DNA of 64,000 nt from Nitrospiraceae bacterium. Its GTDB lineage: Bacteria > Nitrospirota > Nitrospiria > Nitrospirales > UBA2166. Below are positions 30,001 to 36,000 of the stretch, piece by piece. A program made the position numbers. How positions within the stretch are numbered: position 1 is the first letter of the stretch; each line of letters begins with the position of its first letter. The stretch is taken from positions 1 to 64,000 of the forward strand of contig PBSN01000012.1 of the NCBI GenBank assembly GCA_002726235.1. Reading direction: 5' to 3'.

Positions 30001-33000
30001 TGTTGCAAAATTGCAAGGTACGGCTGCCCCCATTCTTGTTGCTTCGGCGGGGGCAACGCTTTCTCCTGTTGAACGAGGCAAGGAAGTCTACAACCTCTAT
30101 GAGTGTTACAATTGCCATAAAATTGGAGGTGAAGGGGGAACCAAGAAACGCGGGCCTGAAATGGGCAATCTTGGCAATCTTCTCACTCCAAAGCAAATCA
30201 TTAAGAAGATCCTGAGTACGAAGGCCGATCCGTACTTCTACGCGGAGGGGTTTGAAAAAGAACACAAGAAGGGGTTGATGCCGGAAAAATACCGCGAGCT
30301 GATGACCGAGGAGGAATTGAGTACTCTCGCGGCGTACTTAATGACACTTAAGAACCCGGCCCATAAAACACCTAAGCCTATCTTCCTGAAGGACGAAGTG
30401 GAACATGGATTCACGGTGTACGGTTATGTTCGAGACGTGAATGGTCAGCCGGTGCCGAATATGAAGGTTGCGGCTCGGCCTTCCACAGCCGGCAGCCACG
30501 CTGCCTCAGCCACCACGAATAAGGATGGGTATTATGAGGCCTTCATCCATCTCCACAATACGGATGCAGGTGCGCTCATTCGCTTGTCGGTTCGCAACCA
30601 GAAGAAAGAACTTCGTGCTGACTTTGACCCATTGGATAAAACAACCAAACGTCAGGCGACCGTGGATTTCACACTATAACCCTGCAATAGCATGGTAGAA
30701 AAGATAGTAAAAATCTCACTGCAATTGGAAGCAAAAAATGGTATGTACAGAACTCTTGCCACGTCACCGGTTTGAATACTTGCGGAACGGATGATTCGTC
30801 GAAGGAGTGAAGGAGCGTGGATGGGCAGTGTGTTACCTGCCTCAAATAATTATGCGAAGGAGGCTCTGAAATGAGAATAGGGACTGTGATCGCAGGATTG
30901 GCGGTGCTGGTTATCTTGGCACCAATTTCGTTTGCCGACGAGGGGCACAACGGCCATGGGAAAATGGGTGCTGCTGGGCCTGTGTCGTCTGAAGCTCTTC
31001 GAGATGTCGGAATAGCCATTGCAAATATGGCCATGGGATGTGCGGTGGAGTGTGGGCTTGAAACCTTCGAACCTTTCAGCCCAGCTCAGCCTAACCACTT
31101 GTGGATTAAGGCAAGCGATAACTACGTATGGTTCCTTCATTTCAACAAGCCTCGGAACCATAAGGCGGCAAAGGTGGTATTCGTTGGAGACGGCGTGAAG
31201 GGGCGTTTTTGTTCCGAGGATCAGCCAGATGGTGGAAAGACGGGTTTTGTTCATTTCCACAGAGCGGAGACATCGGCGGGTGCCATGGGTCATGGTGGCA
31301 AGCCTGGGACTGATGGCTGGTGGCTTCGCCATGTTGCGGTCGGAAAGTCTGAGATGAAAATGAAAGGGATGTCGATGCAGTTTGTGCCTGGGCTTGCGAT
31401 GAAATTTCCGCCGACTCCAGCACCGTCATGCTCATAAAGTATGGCTTGAGTACCCCTCAGAGATTCTCACTGAAGATTCTATTCGCAGAAGAAGGAGAAA
31501 CGTCATGAATTCAGGAATTCGTCGCAGTGGCATTGTCTTCGTCATTCTGGTTGCAGCCTGTGGCCTCTTCGCATCAGGGAGTGTTGCCGATGAAGGGCAT
31601 GGTGGGCATTCCAGCATGAGTGGTCCCGTTCCCTCGTGGACGGCGATGCAGGCTGTTGGTGAAACGCTGGCCAAAGTCTATGACTTCAAACCCTTCAGCC
31701 CAGCTCAGCCCAACCACTTGTGGATGAAGGCGTCAGACAACTATGCAACTTTCCTGCACTTTAATAAGCCTTTTTCTAAGAAAGGCGCAAAGCTCGTTTT
31801 TGTCGGTGATGCTGTGAAGGGGCGGTTTTGTTCCGAGGATCAGCCGGATGGCGGAAAGACGGGCTTTGTTCATTTCCACAGAGCAGTGACGTCGGCAGGT
31901 GTCATGGGTCATGGTGGCAAGCCTGGAACTGATGGCTGGTGGCTTCGCCATGTTGCGGTTCGTCATGCTCCAATGAAAAATCCGAAGACAATGAAGAAAA
32001 TGATAGTCAAGCCTGGCTTGGCCATGATGTTCATGCCGACAAAGGCGCCAGCTTGCTCTTCTTCGGGGAAAGGACCTCTGCTTCCATTACCGGAATGACG
32101 CTTTTGCAAGGGGCTACGGTACTGTACCAGCCCGAGTGTACTGAGTTCGAACGCAACGGCCTGTGTTTTTTTGTTGATGGGGGCCGTCCCAATTGGGTAT
32201 CGACCGATTGGCGCGGCGCGGCGGTGCTTCGTCTGATCGATGGGCGCCGAACGTTGAAGGATCTCGTTTGTGATTATGGCGAGCAGGTTCGGATTGATCC
32301 TCTACGGGCGTGGGTTCATGTTCGTAGGTATGTGCAGGCGGCGCTACGCAGCGAGATTGTCTCCCTTGCTCCCATAATTCCAGAGAGGTATTCCGGACGG
32401 GCGTCGTACCTTCGCCCGTCCGCTCTCAATGAGTTTTGGGTGCATACGAACAATTCATGCAATCTTACCTGTTCCCATTGCCTTGTCTCTTCTCATCCTG
32501 GTGCTGATCCGGGACCATCGACCGCGCATCTACTTCGCGTGATGACAGAAGCAAAAGAACTTGGAGCTTCGCGATTTTACTTTACCGGGGGTGAGCCTTT
32601 TCTTCGCAAGGACATCTTTCAACTTGTTGAGCATGTCACCAAAACACTTGATTCCGAGCTCATTGTGCTCACGAATGCGACCTTGTTTCGTGGCACAGTT
32701 TTAAAGCAGCTTGCTGCGCTTGATCGAACACGATTGAAGCTTCAGATTAGTCTCGATGGCGCGACATCTGAGGTGAATGATCCGATTCGTGGAGAAAAGA
32801 CGTTCGAGAATATCACGCGAGGCATTCAAGCCGCTGTTGGAATGGATATTGAGATCTCACTGACTGCCGTATTGACTGGAACAAACCTGACAGATATTCC
32901 CAAGCTTCCGGCCTTGGCAAAGTCTCTTGGTGTCCAATCGATTCACGTGATGTGGATGCATCGTCGCGGAAGAATTTTAGACCATGCCAATCTGCAGTTT

Positions 33001-36000
33001 CCCAGTAATGCGCAAATGCTGGCGTCGATGCGCTTGGTCAAACAGTATGCCGATGAATATGGTGTGACATTAGATAATTTTGAGTCCCTTCATGGGAGGG
33101 TGAATGGACGTCCTGGCGTCAAGGTCGATCTCAGCAATGCCTGCTGGGATAGTCTCTGTCTGAGCTATGATGGGCATGTCTACCCTTCGGCGTCATTTGC
33201 GGGGCATCCTGAGCTTGATCTTGGCGATACCAGAACGGCCTCTTTGCGTTCGTTGTGGTTGGAAAGCGCCGTCGCGAAAGACATTCGAACCGCAACGGTG
33301 GCGAATAAGGCTGGAGTATCGAACGATCCGTTTCGGTTTATTTTGGGTGGAGGAGATATTGAACATAGCTACTTCTTCTCAGACCAGCGGCTTGGTAGGA
33401 GTCATGTGTTGGATGAGGACCCGTACTACGGGCTCTATGTTGAACTGTCCAAGGACATTATGGTCCACCTCGCGGAATCGAAACGGTCTGCTTTCAATGC
33501 AACCTCTGGGTTTGATGGGCCAATCCTGCTTCATGTGATGGGGGAGGGAATGGCCACTTGTGGCAGTCATTTCTGGGATACGCCGGTCACCACGCTGCAT
33601 TCCAATTGTGTGCTGGCGTTTAACGTAGAGACGCCTCATGACATTATTCAGGATTATTACGGGAAGGCAGCAGAGGTTCCTCAACCGGAATTGTGCTGTA
33701 CCATCGATGGCTATTCCGAAGAGGAACTCTCGCATATCCCGCAGGAAGTCCGCGAACGTTCGTATGGGTGCGGGTCGCCCATGAGAAGCGCAGGGATTGA
33801 AGAGAGTGAAACCATCGTGGATTTTGGCTCCGGTGCTGGCATTGATTGTTTTGTTGCCGCACGAAAAACGAGCTGTTCGGGACGTGTAATTGGCGTCGAT
33901 ATGACCGACAATATGCTACAGGTCGCTGAGCGCAATCGATGTCAGGTTTCTAAATTGCTTGGCTATGACAATGTTGAATTTCGCAAAGGATATTTGGAAG
34001 AGATTCCAGTTCAGGATAAAACGGCAGATCTTGTCACCTCCAATTGCGTCATCAACCTCTCTCCTGACAAAAAAGCCGTGTTTTCGGAAATTTGGAGAAT
34101 TCTCAAGAATGGTGGTCGGACGGTGATTTCTGATATCGTCTCCGAGTGCTTGGTGCCTCCCACCATCAAAGTGAACAATCAACTGTGGGGAGAATGTATT
34201 GCGGGTGCGTTGACCGAAGAAGAATTTATCGCCTCACTCGAAGAGGCAGGTTTTTATGGAATAGAGCTACTTCAGAAGGTGGTATATCGTGACGTCGAAG
34301 GACACCGGTTCAATGCTGTAACCGTACGGGGTTATAAATACGAAATGTCCGTTGGGCCTTCCGAGAATGGATTTGTAGCGATTTATCGTGGTCCAATGAA
34401 AATGGTCGTGGATGAGGCCGGGAAGGCCTATCACAGAGGTGAGTCTGTTCCCGTCTCAGCACACACCGCGGCACGGCTTCAAACTTATCCATACACTTCT
34501 CTTTTCACAGTGATTCCCCCCGAACATCAATCGATGGATATTTTGCCGTCGACACAATCCTCAGGAGACTCGCCTTTTATCTCCGGGGAAGTCTCCTGTT
34601 GCTCCTAAACGTCGAACGGCTCTCTATTCCATGTTGACTGTTAATCGCCAGACGATTGCCATTGGACTGGTTATTCTTGTGCTTGGCCTTGGGATCGCTG
34701 CGTTTGTGGTCATGGAGTTTTCCGACACGTTTCATATTCCAACACCCGACGAGATCTCAGTATGGGTCGAGGGATATGGAGGAGCCGGTCCGGTGGCGTA
34801 TCTTCTACTTTACACGTTTGCCCCAATGTTGTTTGTCCCCAGCTTTCCGATTAGCATGGCGGCGGGACTTCTATTTGGACCGTTATGGGGCACGGTGTTC
34901 GCCTCGTTAGGATCAACCCTTGGCGCACTTCTCCCCTTCATCATTGCGCGACACTTTGCCCGGCCGTATGTTGCGCGACATCTTCGTGGTCGGCTGAAAG
35001 ACTTAGATCAGAAAATAGAGGCCCATGGCTGGATATATTTGGCCGTTACACGATTGATTCCACTATTTCCATTCGAACTTCTCAATTATGGTTTTGGCTT
35101 GACCAAGGTCAGGTTTGTGACATACATTGTCGTGTCGTGGCTCGGAATGCTGCCAGCAACGATTGCGTACGTGTTTTTCGGGGCATCAATGTTGGATATC
35201 GTTGAGGGTACATTCCGCATCGAGCTTGTTATTGGAGTGGTTCTCTTCGCTGTCCTAGGTCTTTTGCCAGTCATTTATCGGCGATCTCGTTATTTCAAAC
35301 CCAAGCAGAAACCTGAGAAAACGATTGGCTAAGGTAAGGTGCGTGTTCGGTGGGTGTGGCACGTTAGCTATGGGTAACTGATCATGGCGAAGTCGACGAC
35401 TCTGCAACAAAAACTTGCCAAGGTGTTGGATGCCGCGCCGATGGGTATTGGGCTCATCGCCTTATCCGGACACGAGACCGAGCCTCTAGTGGCTCAGGCC
35501 ACTCAAGGTCTTATGCCGCGAGAGATTCAAGCGTTACTCCGGTCCATTCCGTTTCACACTGAGAGCGTATCTGCAAATTCAAACACGGATGTCGTGGAGA
35601 ACGATAGTTCATTTCGACTTCGCATTGCAGCACCCAATCATAAATGGATGGTCGGCACGCTGTTCCGGAGTGTGCCTCAAATATCTGTTGCGCTTTTGGT
35701 TGGACGTAAGACGGGAGCTGATATTGCCAAGAAAGAAAAGACGCTCCTCAAAGAATTAGCGAAGCAGGTTCTCACGCTTCTCGATGATGCAGCTGTCCAT
35801 ACAGGCGTGGAAAGCTCTCGTGTGCACGCGGATGTGCCGACGGCCCCTGCGGTAGACGGCGTGGGAGAGGCACTGCAAGAATTTCTGCAGTTCGACCAGG
35901 TCTGGTTGTCGGAATATATGCCCGAAACAAATAGTGTGACGGTGACGCACACCTTTGTCCCAGGGCAGTCAGATCTGAAGATCGGACAGCAGTTTCCCAT

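What a model noticed while it worked through the whole genome (the two positions that open the first line are those of the whole stretch)
32095..34608. Radical SAM enzyme fused to an arsenite methyltransferase
g01257 (837 aa) joins a SPASM/twitch-type radical SAM domain (residues ~110-430) to a complete ArsM-type arsenite methyltransferase (515-800) that keeps the three arsenic-binding cysteine motifs. I read it as a one-protein organoarsenical synthase that both methylates As(III) and makes a further As-C bond by radical chemistry. Known As-C forming radical SAM enzymes (ArsS for arsenosugars, ArsL for arsinothricin) are separate proteins of other radical SAM subfamilies, so this would be a third route and a candidate source of marine organoarsenicals.
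Evidence so far: Pfam Radical_SAM 120-269, methyltransferase 565-720; NCBIfam arsenite methyltransferase PRK11873 E 3e-70, ArsM of arsinothricin/arsenosugar pathways E 4e-62/8e-42; N-part best to Rv1681-family, sactipeptide and mycofactocin maturases (E 1e-37 to 1e-28) and only 50 bits (cut 300) to ArsS; Swiss-Prot 43% to Clostridium ArsM. Motifs YGCGSP, SNCVINL, WGECIAG seen in the sequence. Full-length fusion in 5 of 5 UBA2166 genomes (75-86% identity); only the methyltransferase part matches in 5 of 8 other Nitrospirales. A second, unfused ArsM-like gene lies beside arsR (g00663/g00664, call 7).
(Added by a program. Inside this text positions count along the whole contig: contig position 1 is position 1 of the stretch shown here. 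"Call 12" and the like, gene names such as g00115 and contig names such as C1 are that model's own, and its searches are not shown. The text may have been shortened before it was handed on; [...] marks where a part breaks off. The agent that wrote the report below was given it as the finding of a first reader that could run no searches.)

Follow-up and report, generated by a model that had tools for sequence, protein, structure and literature searches.

The report
Radical SAM–ArsM fusion replacing ArsS
This gene encodes one protein that joins an arsenic methyltransferase to an unusual radical SAM enzyme, and it belongs to a widespread, unstudied family that seems to replace the known arsenosugar enzyme ArsS in bacteria that lack it.

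Summary
Window 32095-34608 (+) is one 837-aa ORF. It has a PqqD-like RRE domain, a radical SAM (rSAM) core (CNLTCSHC), a SPASM-fold domain that keeps only 1 of 7 SPASM cysteines, and a complete ArsM with all conserved cysteines plus a flexible C-terminal Cys-Cys tail.

The fusion is not a curiosity of one genus. Its family-specific middle region finds 146 protein clusters (50% identity) across several phyla. Variants include split, reverse-order (ArsM-rSAM), +DUF5714 and +glycosyltransferase forms.

In distant relatives the gene sits with TIGR04282/TIGR04283 ("arsenosugar biosynthesis glycosyltransferases"), a DedA/VTT protein and an FAD disulfide reductase. The same accessory genes flank true ArsS-ArsM pairs and fusions.

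In 201 Nitrospirota genomes, 8 of 9 carrying this rSAM module lack ArsS. All 4 sister genomes have TIGR04282/3 and no ArsS. The methyltransferase domain falls in the ArsS-linked ArsM clade, apart from ordinary ArsM.

Best reading (about 0.6): a two-step organoarsenical synthase whose rSAM module does the ArsS job, forming the third As-C bond on methylated As(III). It is an analogue within the arsenosugar-type pathway, not a third pathway. There is no biochemistry, and seven literature searches found no description.

The parts
32095..34608 (+). The fusion gene, 837 aa (P0001): RRE, rSAM core, degenerate SPASM fold, ArsM and a Cys-Cys tail.
   Evidence: ORF and translation. Domains. Model with mean pLDDT 87.6 and pTM 0.86. 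The start at ATG 32095 agrees with the N-termini of 15 homologues.
32131..32379 (+). Residues 13-95: N-terminal PqqD-like RRE (winged-helix) domain with the invariant PNW motif (P32 N33 W34).
   Evidence: Three strands followed by three helices (E16-20, E23-28, E33-37, H39-47, H54-65, H69-85). The VIA alignment to CteB 5wgg_A starts at model residue 13 / chain residue 2 (Z 29.9). Some homologues carry a precomputed PF05402 hit. P32 and W34 are invariant across all architectures.
32422..33084 (+). Residues 110-330: radical SAM core. The cluster motif C122-x3-C126-x2-C129 lies at nt 32458-32481, and the TGGEP SAM motif at residues 164-168.
   Evidence: Pfam PF04055 at 120-269. These residues are invariant. 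CxxxCxxC is intact in 196 of 198 family modules.
33085..33624 (+). Residues 331-510: SPASM-fold domain without its auxiliary-cluster cysteines (only C350 of 7 remains), the GGGDIEHS motif in place of the CX2CX5CX3C motif, and the family-wide conserved C489, H502 and C505.
   Evidence: Aligns to anSME, BlsE and viperin over model 108-510. Cysteine mapping against SPASM-intact relatives. C505 is present in 191 of 198 modules (the other 7 are gaps) and C489 in 182 of 198.
33637..34533 (+). Residues 515-813: complete ArsM-type As(III) SAM methyltransferase. Cysteines are C534/C535, C559 (YGCGSP), C651 (SNCVINL) and C701 (GECIAG).
   Evidence: PDB sequence hits to ArsM/AS3MT at E about 1e-36 with the motifs aligned. 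Foldseek E about 1e-22 and VIA Z 28.4 over model 531-813. The cysteines are invariant in 16 fusions. Three of them (C559, C651, C701) are also invariant in 57 fusions, and C534/C535 are 90% or more conserved there.
34537..34605 (+). Residues 815-837: disordered C-terminal tail ending in Cys835-Cys836.
   Evidence: pLDDT is below 50 for 815-837. C835/C836 are invariant in 16 fusions and 90% or more conserved in 57. A terminal CC is shared by the ArsS-linked ArsM clade and is rare in ordinary ArsM.
34631..35332 (+). DedA/VTT-domain membrane protein, 22 nt downstream. It is a conserved partner of the cassette.
   Evidence: Pfam VTT_dom E 1.5e-27. A VTT gene lies next to the fusion in WIN and L001-L004, and in L006, L011, L012 and L013. 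It lies between the split ArsM and TIGR04283 in L115/L116 and next to ArsS-ArsM fusions in L127 and L131. An RNA-library contig bridges 34289-34797.
30871..32098 (+). Two paralogous secreted His-rich proteins of unknown function (30871-31437 and 31505-32098). The stop of the second overlaps the fusion's ATG (ATGA). They are probably co-transcribed but are not conserved partners.
   Evidence: Sequences. No Pfam or NCBIfam hit. They are present upstream of the fusion only in WIN, L001 and L003 of the 5 genus-level loci and in no distant locus. 66 homologues were found, and those with source names are Nitrospirota hypothetical proteins.

Best explanation
The gene encodes a bifunctional organoarsenical synthase of the arsenosugar-type pathway.

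Shown:
- It is a single polypeptide with a complete ArsM (all arsenic-binding cysteines).
- It also carries an rSAM module with an RRE, an rSAM core and a SPASM fold without auxiliary-cluster cysteines.
- It belongs to a widespread family that co-occurs with the arsenosugar accessory genes (TIGR04282, TIGR04283, DedA/VTT, FAD disulfide reductase).
- The family is found almost only in genomes without ArsS.

Inferred:
- The ArsM domain methylates As(III) to a methylated trivalent species.
- The arsenical stays thiolate-bound and passes, probably on the flexible C-terminal Cys-Cys tail, to the rSAM module.
- There C489/C505 (with H502) hold it next to the [4Fe-4S]-SAM site.
- Reductive SAM cleavage gives a carbon radical, most likely 5'-deoxyadenosyl as in ArsS.
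- The radical adds to arsenic and makes the third As-C bond (5'-deoxy-5'-dimethylarsinoyl-adenosine or a close analogue).
- The TIGR04283/TIGR04282 pair, encoded elsewhere in the genus, would process this product further.
- The DedA/VTT protein would handle the product or a lipid-linked form at the membrane.

The ArsS reaction is reported as redox-neutral. That fits the loss of the SPASM auxiliary clusters in most of this family.
For: 1. Rosetta-stone evidence. The same rSAM module occurs as rSAM-ArsM, ArsM-rSAM (P0222, P0245), rSAM-ArsM-DUF5714, rSAM-ArsM-GT2 (P0164) and alone. In Nitrospirota family f6 it is split into a roughly 480-aa rSAM and a roughly 320-aa ArsM.

2. Shared cassette.
- TIGR04282 and/or TIGR04283 lie beside the fusion in 6 of 24 distant metagenome loci, with 3 more weak cases. 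VTT and the FAD oxidoreductase are each found in 4 of 24.
- None of 52 ordinary ArsM loci has TIGR04282 or VTT, and the only TIGR04283 hit among them is a weak one in L041.
- Split operons read rSAM-TIGR04282-GDPD and ArsM-VTT-TIGR04283.
- True ArsS-ArsM fusions (L127-L132) are flanked by the same VTT, TIGR04282, TIGR04283 and FAD-oxidoreductase genes.
- In L021 and L025 an ArsM of the fusion's type is followed by genuine ArsS (415.8 and 452.2 bits, cut-off 300).

3. Complementary distribution in 201 Nitrospirota genomes.
- ArsS is in 118 genomes, TIGR04282 in 125, and both in 114.
- The module is in 9, of which 8 lack ArsS.
- 7 of the 11 genomes with TIGR04282 but no ArsS carry the module.
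- Within one genus (g9), G108 has the fusion and no ArsS, while G171 has ArsS and no module.
- In the window's genus, 5 of 5 genomes have the fusion. 4 of 4 sister genomes have an adjacent TIGR04283-TIGR04282 pair and none of the 4 has ArsS. ArsS was not found in the window's own genome either.

4. Methyltransferase tree. A 99% SH-aLRT split separates 50 of 51 ordinary ArsM from a clade holding all rSAM-fused, split, ArsS-fused and ArsS-adjacent ArsM. That clade shares the terminal CC tail.

5. Structure. The single-chain model is confident (pLDDT 87.6, pTM 0.86). The C half matches ArsM at Z 28.

6. ArsS chemistry. ArsS adenosylates DMAs(III) without an external reductant (passages of PMC13598754).

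7. Expression. Pieces of the operon occur at 99% likeness or more in RNA libraries of 3 studies.
Against: - There are no biochemical or genetic data for any member.
- The rSAM module is not an ArsS homologue beyond the superfamily core (50.9 bits against 300).
- Its architecture (RRE plus SPASM fold; closest to CteB, anSME, SuiB and TigE) is typical of peptide- or protein-modifying enzymes.
- The 'arsenosugar' names of TIGR04282/TIGR04283 are themselves annotations by association.
- The window's own assembly has no TIGR04282 and no TIGR04283 above cut-off. I attribute this to the missing ~9%, because the whole block, including PrmA, has no hit in the assembly. Loss is not excluded.
- The 9 module-bearing genomes of the phylum sample fall in only 5 families, so the complementarity rests on few independent events.
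- G146 has both ArsS and a fusion, though its fusion has an in-frame TAG.
- 4 of the 11 genomes with TIGR04282 but no ArsS have no module.
- Which carbon group is transferred, and to which arsenic species, is pure inference.
Confidence: 0.6

Rival explanations
1. The protein is an organoarsenical synthase, but its radical step differs from that of ArsS. The rSAM module might transfer another group (for example 3-amino-3-carboxypropyl, as ArsL does). It might act on As(III) or MAs(III) before methylation. Or it might remodel the carbon skeleton of an arsenical. The product would then be a different organoarsenical.
For: The module belongs to a different rSAM subfamily from ArsS. Two conserved cysteines (C489, C505) would suit MAs(III) as well as DMAs(III). 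Extra domains occur in relatives, namely DUF5714 and GT2. GDPD and patatin genes lie in the split operons. ArsL shows that the order 'radical step first, methylation second' exists (passages).
Against: The downstream enzymes are the same curated families as in ArsS genomes, all above cut-off. That argues for the same or a very similar intermediate. The motif is a canonical CxxxCxxC with TGGEP, and there is no ArsL-like C-terminal RCCLKC motif.
Confidence: 0.2
2. The rSAM module is a RiPP- or protein-maturase. Its RRE would bind a peptide, which could be a separate precursor or a protein. The ArsM-like domain would methylate that substrate or load arsenic onto it.
For: The protein has an RRE fold plus an rSAM core plus a SPASM fold. 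The closest structures are CteB (Z 29.9, model 13-463), anSME, SuiB, SkfB, ChlB and TigE. 17 of 63 representative relatives keep 6-7 SPASM cysteines. Two secreted proteins are encoded directly upstream in the window.
Against: No small ORF (20-90 aa) within 1 kb of the fusion is conserved beyond close relatives. The upstream secreted paralogues are missing from 2 of 5 genus-level loci and from all distant loci. Auxiliary-cluster cysteines are lost in 40 of 63 representatives. The conserved partners are arsenosugar-cassette genes, not RiPP genes. All the ArsM arsenic-binding cysteines are conserved.
Confidence: 0.1
3. The enzyme acts on another soft metalloid (Sb, Se, Te) rather than arsenic. 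Alternatively, the rSAM module serves only the methyltransferase (for example redox activation) in a detoxification role.
For: ArsM-like proteins with selenocysteine and unexplained fusion partners exist as NCBIfam families. An ExtI-like porin of the selenite/tellurite type lies 5 kb downstream, at 87 bits against a cut-off of 150.
Against: The cysteine pattern and fold are those of solved As(III) methyltransferases. The cassette is the one built around ArsS, whose arsenic chemistry is established. The porin is below cut-off and is separated from the fusion by three intervening genes.
Confidence: 0.07

Closest known systems
ArsS plus ArsM of arsenosugar biosynthesis (TIGR04167 with its ArsM, including the natural ArsS-ArsM fusions seen here)
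   Same: An rSAM enzyme is paired or fused with an ArsM of the same clade. The accessory genes are the same (TIGR04282, TIGR04283, DedA/VTT, FAD disulfide reductase). The ArsM ends in the same Cys-Cys tail.
   Different: The rSAM part is not ArsS: it scores 50.9 bits against a cut-off of 300, and only the N-terminal core of the model is matched. It has an N-terminal RRE and a SPASM-fold C-terminal domain instead of ArsS's Cys-rich domain. The order in the fusion is rSAM then ArsM, as in the ArsS-ArsM fusions, but reverse-order forms also exist.
ArsL plus ArsM of arsinothricin biosynthesis
   Same: rSAM-dependent As-C bond formation is coupled to an ArsM, and cysteines near a C-terminus bind arsenic (passages of PMC13598754 and bioRxiv 10.1101/2024.02.01.577332).
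   Different: ArsL is a separate protein with an RCCLKC motif and transfers the 3-amino-3-carboxypropyl group. The window protein has no such motif. The arsinothricin ArsM model scores 210.5 bits against a cut-off of 500.
RRE-containing rSAM/SPASM maturases (CteB, SuiB, TigE) and anSME
   Same: The overall architecture and fold of residues 13-510 match. CteB 5wgg_A gives Z 29.9, rmsd 4.2 and 412 aligned residues. anSME gives Z 29.2 over model 110-510.
   Different: Six of the seven SPASM cysteines are replaced. No precursor peptide gene was found. The module is fused to an arsenic methyltransferase and lies in arsenic-related cassettes.
Canonical detoxifying ArsM (PRK11873; solved CmArsM, CrArsM, human AS3MT)
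   Same: The fold, SAM motif and four conserved cysteines are shared.
   Different: The domain falls in a separate clade from 50 of 51 ordinary ArsM sampled. It carries a terminal CC tail, is fused to an rSAM module, and scores 236.9 bits, below the curated 263.

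Membership tests
ArsM, As(III) S-adenosylmethionine methyltransferase (NF008823/PRK11873) | Class I SAM methyltransferase fold with a SAM-binding glycine motif | tested here: met
   Pfam Methyltransf_31 at 569-719, E 1e-28. 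VDFGSGAGID is in the sequence. Foldseek to 5evj, 6cx6, 4fr0 and 8xt7 at E about 1e-22.
ArsM, As(III) S-adenosylmethionine methyltransferase (NF008823/PRK11873) | Four conserved cysteines (numbered C44, C72, C174, C224 in CmArsM, from recall) | tested here: met
   C559 (YGCGSP), C651 (SNCVINL) and C701 (GECIAG) align to the identical motifs of solved ArsM/AS3MT. C534/C535 lie within about 3 residues of the first cysteine of CmArsM in the HMMER alignment. All are invariant in 16 fusions.
ArsM, As(III) S-adenosylmethionine methyltransferase (NF008823/PRK11873) | ArsM C-terminal domain | tested here: met
   VIA alignment of model 531-813 to 6cx6_B 39-346, Z 28.4, 281 aligned residues.
ArsM, As(III) S-adenosylmethionine methyltransferase (NF008823/PRK11873) | Score above the curated NCBIfam cut-off | tested here: not met
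   236.9 bits against 263. Model positions 43-235 of 272 are matched. The split and ArsS-adjacent relatives also score 234-249.
ArsM, As(III) S-adenosylmethionine methyltransferase (NF008823/PRK11873) | Methylation of As(III) in an assay | not testable with these tools
   An enzyme assay is needed.
ArsS, arsenosugar rSAM (TIGR04167) | HMM score above the cut-off, including the C-terminal Cys-rich domain | tested here: not met
   50.9 bits against 300. Only model positions 4-141 of 303 are matched.
ArsS, arsenosugar rSAM (TIGR04167) | CxxxCxxC rSAM cluster motif | tested here: met
   C122, C126 and C129. They are invariant.
ArsS, arsenosugar rSAM (TIGR04167) | Genomic association with ArsM, TIGR04282 and TIGR04283 | tested here: met
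   Met for the family and for 4 of 4 sister genomes of the genus. In the window's own assembly TIGR04282/3 were not found.
ArsS, arsenosugar rSAM (TIGR04167) | 5'-deoxyadenosyl transfer to DMAs(III) | not testable with these tools
   Assay needed. The activity of ArsS itself is taken from passages of PMC13598754.
RRE-dependent rSAM/SPASM peptide maturases (CteB type) | N-terminal RRE (PqqD-like winged helix) | tested here: met
   Topology of three strands followed by three helices at residues 16-85. CteB alignment from model residue 13. This is met by fold only; peptide binding was not tested.
RRE-dependent rSAM/SPASM peptide maturases (CteB type) | Seven-cysteine SPASM motif binding two auxiliary clusters (motif definition from recall) | tested here: not met
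   The window protein keeps C350 only. S365, V408, D411, L417, D421 and Y445 replace the rest. Among 63 representative relatives, 17 keep 6-7 cysteines and 40 keep 0-1.
RRE-dependent rSAM/SPASM peptide maturases (CteB type) | Precursor peptide gene next to the enzyme | tested here: inconclusive
   No ORF of 20-90 aa within 1 kb is conserved beyond close relatives in 35 loci. Short peptides are hard to detect this way.
ArsL, arsinothricin rSAM | C-terminal RCCLKC arsenic-binding motif (from passages of PMC13598754) | tested here: not met
   No such motif is in the 837-aa sequence. The rSAM module ends with HSNC and the protein with SCCS. No ArsL profile was run.

The most novel reading that the evidence does not exclude
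The rSAM module is more than a stand-in for ArsS. It would be a former RiPP-type maturase that lost its auxiliary clusters. Its RRE would now dock the enzyme's own flexible Cys-Cys tail, or that of a separate ArsM in split systems. Arsenic would then travel as thiolate-bound cargo on a swinging arm between the methylation site and the radical site. That would be a carrier-arm assembly line for organoarsenicals, and its product could be a so far undescribed arsenical made by non-photosynthetic marine and sediment bacteria.
Probability: 0.2. Interest if true: 0.85.

Novelty: new variant of a known kind. Interest (0 to 1): 0.72.

Why it matters
Only two enzymes, ArsS and ArsL, are named for radical As-C bond formation in the passages I read. 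This family would be a second, independently recruited solution for the arsenosugar-type pathway. It was built from a peptide-maturase scaffold that shed its auxiliary clusters.

The family is widespread. It comprises 146 clusters at 50% identity. Source names include Nitrospirota, Nitrospinota, Elusimicrobiota, Omnitrophota, Deltaproteobacteria and Acidobacteriota. It is annotated only as 'methyltransferase domain-containing protein'.

The window's organism is found in marine and hydrothermal-vent metagenomes, and pieces of the operon appear in RNA libraries. The family is therefore a candidate bacterial source of complex organoarsenicals in the dark ocean. Surveys that look only for ArsS would not count genomes that carry this module instead. 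The hypothesis can be tested directly with one recombinant protein.

Tried and rejected
- **Complex prediction.** I ran the split rSAM (alignment A4) against the split ArsM (alignment A5). The result was 'no answer', score 0.00. This is not evidence either way.
- **Genome-contig scan.** With the single protein as query, it returned only 4 close loci. The wider context came from the metagenome scan and the genome search instead.
- **Promoter and terminator scan of 29300-37300.** The counts were no higher than in shuffles, so no transcription unit is claimed from it.
- **Artefact check.** I considered a frameshift or assembly artefact. I rejected it because the same architecture occurs in 5 of 5 genus genomes and in the 120 best database hits at 93-100% coverage.
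- **Alternative start.** I rejected the longer GTG start at 31939. Homologue N-termini align to ATG 32095, and the extension overlaps the upstream gene.
- **Upstream secreted paralogues as substrates or partners.** I rejected them as conserved partners, because they are absent from L002, L004 and all distant loci.
- **Small-ORF search for a precursor peptide.** Nothing is conserved beyond close relatives.
- **RNA coverage.** Parts of the gene without RNA-contig cover say nothing.
- **Model geometry.** Distances between C489/C505, the cluster cysteines and the ArsM site could not be measured.
- **Tree.** The careful tree search did not finish. The quick IQ-TREE result is what I report.
- **Literature.** Searches that found no description of this fusion: 'radical SAM'+ArsM+fusion; ArsS+arsenosugar+'radical SAM'; DUF2064/arsenosugar; 'arsenite methyltransferase'+'radical SAM'+fused; SPASM+arsenic+methyltransferase+'radical SAM'; arsS+arsM+arsenosugar+metagenom; arsenosugar+biosynthesis+Nitrospira. 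Subscription-journal papers are not in that library.

Full report
**1. The observation**

Window 32095-34608 (+) is a single open frame of 837 codons.
- Pfam finds Radical_SAM at residues 120-269 and a class I methyltransferase at 569-719.
- NCBIfam finds arsenite methyltransferase PRK11873 at 236.9 bits (cut-off 263, residues 535-732). It also matches the arsinothricin and arsenosugar ArsM models below their cut-offs.
- For the N half, NCBIfam matches Rv1681-type, sactipeptide, mycofactocin and other SPASM-type rSAM models, all far below cut-off.
- ArsS (TIGR04167) reaches only 50.9 bits against 300.
- The rSAM motif is C122-x3-C126-x2-C129. The ArsM motifs YGCGSP (C559), SNCVINL (C651) and GECIAG (C701) and the pair C534/C535 are present.
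- ATG 32095 is the true start, because the N-termini of 15 homologues from several phyla align to it. Its A-T-G-A overlaps the stop of the upstream gene.

The Swiss-Prot comparison was not re-run.

**2. Anatomy**

A model built on 57 homologues is confident: mean pLDDT 87.6 and pTM 0.86. The only weak stretches are 509-512 and 815-837.
- Residues 16-85 form three strands followed by three helices, the topology of PqqD-like RRE domains.
- VIA-align places model 13-463 on the sactipeptide maturase CteB (5wgg_A, Z 29.9, rmsd 4.2, 412 aligned). It places 110-510 on anSME (Z 29.2) and 531-813 on ArsM with As(III) and SAH (6cx6_B, Z 28.4). Foldseek agrees.
- By sequence, the C half hits solved ArsM/AS3MT chains at E about 1e-36 with the three cysteine motifs aligned identically.

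The domain after the rSAM core has the SPASM fold but not its chemistry.
- I aligned the protein to relatives that keep the full motif (the motif definition is from recall). The window protein retains only C350 of the seven SPASM cysteines. The CX2CX5CX3C stretch has become ...SNDPFRFILGGGDIEHS....
- Among 63 representative relatives with a near-complete module, 9 keep 7 of these cysteines, 8 keep 6, 4 keep 5, 1 keeps 4, 1 keeps 3, 8 keep 1 and 32 keep none.
- Among all 198 modules in hand, CxxxCxxC is intact in 196. C505 is present in 191 (the other 7 are gaps) and C489 in 182.
- H502 is invariant in the 14-sequence cross-architecture alignment.
- In split and reverse-order relatives the module ends right after this H-x-x-C motif.

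**3. How common is the fusion?**

A word-indexed search returned 1928 proteins with E 1e-3 or better among 7999 scored candidates of 460-1465 aa. That number may include long rSAM-only proteins.
- The best 120 are all 799-885 aa, 48-100% identical, and cover 93-100% of the query.
- Source names include Nitrospirae/Nitrospiria, Nitrospinae, Elusimicrobia, Deltaproteobacteria and Omnitrophica. One partial cluster member is named Acidobacteria.
- Several sit on contigs of 4-6 Mb.

An exhaustive search with the family-specific middle region (residues 300-540) found 146 representative clusters at E 1e-3 or better, 103 at 1e-10 and 18 at 1e-30.

Pfam on 11 of them showed five architectures:
- rSAM-ArsM-DUF5714 (4 of 11: P0173, P0180, P0158, P0172).
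- rSAM-ArsM-GT2 (1: P0164).
- ArsM-rSAM-SPASM in reverse order (2: P0222, P0245).
- rSAM alone (4).
- The window's rSAM-ArsM type is the fifth architecture. It was not among the 11 scanned and rests.

Fusion in both orders is classical Rosetta-stone evidence that the two modules work together.

**4. Context**

*Within the genus.* The synteny is cytochrome c, the fusion, DedA/VTT and a GAF histidine kinase. It is shared by WIN and L001-L004. The two secreted paralogues upstream occur only in WIN, L001 and L003.

*In 24 distant fusion loci from metagenomes* (L005-L020, L022-L024, L026, L028-L031; many are only 2-9 kb):
- Profile scans found TIGR04282 and/or TIGR04283 at 90 bits or more next to the fusion in 6 (L006, L011, L013, L014, L024, L030). 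Weak TIGR04282-like hits occur in 3 more (L008, L009, L020).
- A VTT protein is present in 4 (L006, L011, L012, L013).
- A MerA-like FAD oxidoreductase is present in 4 (L006, L013, L024, L030).
- NCBIfam confirmed the glycosyltransferase families above their curated cut-offs in L006, L013, L014 and L024. L009 and L020 are below cut-off. The oxidoreductase NF004991 is above cut-off in L006 and L013.

*In 52 ordinary ArsM loci from the same scan* (L032-L084 without L045):
- There was no TIGR04282, no VTT, one weak distant TIGR04283-like hit (L041) and one weak oxidoreductase hit (L069).
- There was no ArsS.

**5. Split forms and true ArsS cassettes**

In Nitrospirota family f6 the gene is split.
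- A roughly 480-aa RRE-rSAM-SPASM protein is followed by TIGR04282 and a glycerophosphodiester phosphodiesterase (L117, L119). L118 is cut at the TIGR04282 start.
- On another contig, a roughly 320-aa ArsM is followed by a VTT protein and TIGR04283 (L115, L116).

Conversely, in L021 and L025 a free-standing ArsM is followed by genuine ArsS (415.8 and 452.2 bits, cut-off 300). Both ArsMs score far higher on the fusion methyltransferase profile (462 and 325 bits) than ordinary ArsM (about 200-260). In the tree, L021 sits inside the rSAM-fused clade and L025 groups with the ArsS-adjacent ArsMs. In L021 the ArsS is followed by TIGR04282.

Nine genomes of the phylum carry ArsS-ArsM fusions in one frame of about 660-717 aa. 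For six of these I fetched the loci (L127-L132).
- Flanking genes are VTT (L127, L131), TIGR04282 (L128, L129, L131, L132), TIGR04283 (L129, L131) and the FAD oxidoreductase (L132).

The two kinds of rSAM enzyme therefore sit in the same cassette.

**6. Complementary distribution**

The same 201 Nitrospirota genomes were searched three times.
- ArsS (E 1e-40 or better) is in 118, and 115 of those are above cut-off.
- TIGR04282 (E 1e-25 or better) is in 125, and 122 of those are above cut-off.
- Both are in 114. ArsS without TIGR04282 is in 4.
- TIGR04282 without ArsS is in 11 (G108, G124, G001, G007, G011, G020, G029, G038, G060, G188, G199).

The new rSAM module was found in 9 genomes:
- G000, G124 and G108 carry fusions.
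- G146 carries a fusion with one in-frame TAG.
- G001, G020, G011, G029 and G038 carry the split form.

Eight of these 9 lack ArsS; G146 has it. Seven of the 11 genomes with TIGR04282 but no ArsS carry the module. The other four (G007, G060, G188, G199) do not at this threshold.

Within genus g9, G108 has the fusion, TIGR04282/3 and no ArsS. G171 has ArsS and no module.

These 9 genomes belong to 5 families, so the independent events are few.

**7. The window's own genus**

- All 5 genomes have the fusion.
- The 4 sister genomes have an adjacent TIGR04283-TIGR04282 pair above cut-off. None of the 4 has ArsS.
- The window's own assembly is 90.65% complete. It has no TIGR04282, no TIGR04283 above cut-off (best 78.2 bits against 182) and no ArsS.
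- In G204 the pair lies next to a block that includes PrmA, an M20 peptidase and other housekeeping genes. Apart from one weak GT2 match to the TIGR04283 gene (28% identity), nothing in that block has a tblastn hit in the G000 assembly. The genes on the other side are syntenic within contig C8.

I therefore think the pair lies in the unassembled part, but loss is not excluded.

**8. The methyltransferase clade**

A quick maximum-likelihood tree used 102 methyltransferase domains, with SH-aLRT support and a midpoint root. The careful search did not finish.
- A 99% split puts 50 of 51 ordinary ArsM on one side.
- The other side has 52 rows: all 29 rSAM-fused, 2 split, 6 ArsS-fused, 6 ArsS-adjacent, 5 f9, the genome's own unfused ArsM, 2 partial long forms and L032.

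The ordinary loci are those the metagenome scan ranked best, not a random sample.

A Cys-Cys pair within the last four residues marks this clade:
- 19 of 29 rSAM-fused ORFs have it. The others are 5 long DUF5714 forms, 4 ORFs that are cut short or were mis-keyed by my script (L010, L012, L023, L114), and L008.
- 2 of 2 split, 5 of 6 ArsS-fused, 6 of 6 ArsS-adjacent, 5 of 5 f9 and the own unfused ArsM have it.
- Only 4 of 51 ordinary ArsM have it.

The tail is disordered in the model.

**9. Mechanism**

From passages of PMC13598754:
- ArsS adenosylates DMAs(III) to 5'-deoxy-5'-dimethylarsinoyl-adenosine without an external reductant.
- The arsenic-centred radical returns the electron to the cluster.
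- ArsL binds As(III) through a C-terminal RCCLKC motif.

From passages of bioRxiv 10.1101/2024.02.01.577332: ArsM, ArsS and ArsL each use a different C-S bond of SAM.

My inferences:
- The ArsM domain makes a methylated trivalent arsenical.
- The terminal Cys-Cys arm carries it to the rSAM module.
- C489, C505 and H502 hold it there.
- A SAM-derived radical, most simply 5'-deoxyadenosyl, adds to arsenic.
- Because the same curated downstream families are kept, the product should be the ArsS product or something very close to it.
- A redox-neutral reaction needs no auxiliary clusters, which would explain their stepwise loss (7, 6, 5, 4, 3, 1, 0 cysteines).
- The thioredoxin genes (L008, L020), the SCO1/SenC gene and the FAD disulfide reductase fit ArsM's known need for disulfide reduction. 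That last point is from recall.

**10. Expression and habitat**

Near-identical DNA is held by marine, seawater and hydrothermal-vent metagenome runs of 14 studies, one of which may be the source of this DNA.

Contigs from RNA libraries of 3 studies match at 99% or more. They cover pieces of both upstream paralogues, six stretches of the fusion and the fusion-DedA junction (34289-34797). RNA libraries can contain DNA, and contigs cannot show transcript ends. This is only a hint of transcription.

**11. Rivals**

The peptide-maturase reading rests on the fold. No conserved small ORF was found near the fusion in 35 loci, and the upstream secreted proteins are not conserved partners. Even so, the strongly conserved RRE (PNW motif) needs a ligand, which I cannot identify. 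A different radical product, or another metalloid, also remains possible.

**12. Novelty**

Seven full-text searches found no description of this fusion or of an RRE/SPASM-type rSAM in arsenic metabolism. Subscription-only papers are outside that library. NCBI names the homologues 'methyltransferase domain-containing protein'.

I rate it a new variant of a known kind: the arsenosugar-type cassette with a non-orthologous radical enzyme.

Noticed in passing
window 30871-31437 and 31505-32098 (+): These are two tandem paralogues encoding secreted His-rich proteins (DEGH.GHG, FVHFHR and GHGGKPGTDGWWLRH motifs, C-terminal Cys) with no Pfam or NCBIfam hit. The second is translationally coupled to the fusion. 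Of the 66 homologues, those with source names are Nitrospirota hypothetical proteins, including Ca. Nitrospira bockiana and Ca. Manganitrophus. RNA-library contigs cover them. They may be periplasmic metal or metalloid binders.
   Followed up: partly
L127-L132 (G075:C49, G040:C83, G123:C66, G055:C8, G166:C1, G175:C11): Natural ArsS-ArsM fusion proteins of about 660-717 aa occur in several Nitrospirota families. They are flanked by VTT, TIGR04282, TIGR04283 and an FAD oxidoreductase. I found no mention of such fusions in the papers searched.
   Followed up: partly
P0173, P0180, P0158, P0172; loci L024, L026, L028, L029, L030: Long relatives (about 1020-1080 aa) add a Cys-rich DUF5714 domain after the ArsM, joined by a linker rich in CC pairs. 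P0164 adds a GT2 glycosyltransferase instead. P0222 and P0245 have the reverse order, ArsM-rSAM-SPASM.
   Followed up: partly
L114 (G146:C133:30224-32512): One genome carries both a true ArsS and a copy of the fusion with an in-frame TAG that matches only to residue 754. This may be a decaying copy after ArsS was gained, or a sequencing error. A B12-binding rSAM gene lies directly downstream.
   Followed up: no
many f10 genomes: Many ArsS genes and some ArsM genes of the phylum have a single in-frame TGA. This fits the known selenocysteine forms of these proteins.
   Followed up: no
window 39546-40862 (+): A 438-aa protein resembles the selenite/tellurite-reduction porin ExtI (87.3 bits, cut-off 150). 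It lies downstream of an outer-membrane beta-barrel gene (37348-38031). A link to the fusion was not shown.
   Followed up: no
L086 = G000:C8:80793-84653: The genome's second, unfused ArsM (403 aa) is followed by an ArsR-family regulator and a PstS-like binding protein. In the tree this ArsM groups with the ArsS-adjacent ArsM of Nitrospira-type genomes and ends in CC, although ArsS was not found in this genome.
   Followed up: partly
L113 (G108:C15): In G108 a PHO4-family phosphate transporter gene directly follows the fusion. It is a possible entry route for arsenate.
   Followed up: no
L117, L119: In the split operons a glycerophosphodiester phosphodiesterase follows TIGR04282, and a patatin-like phospholipase lies opposite in L117. 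This hints at phospholipid-linked arsenosugars.
   Followed up: no
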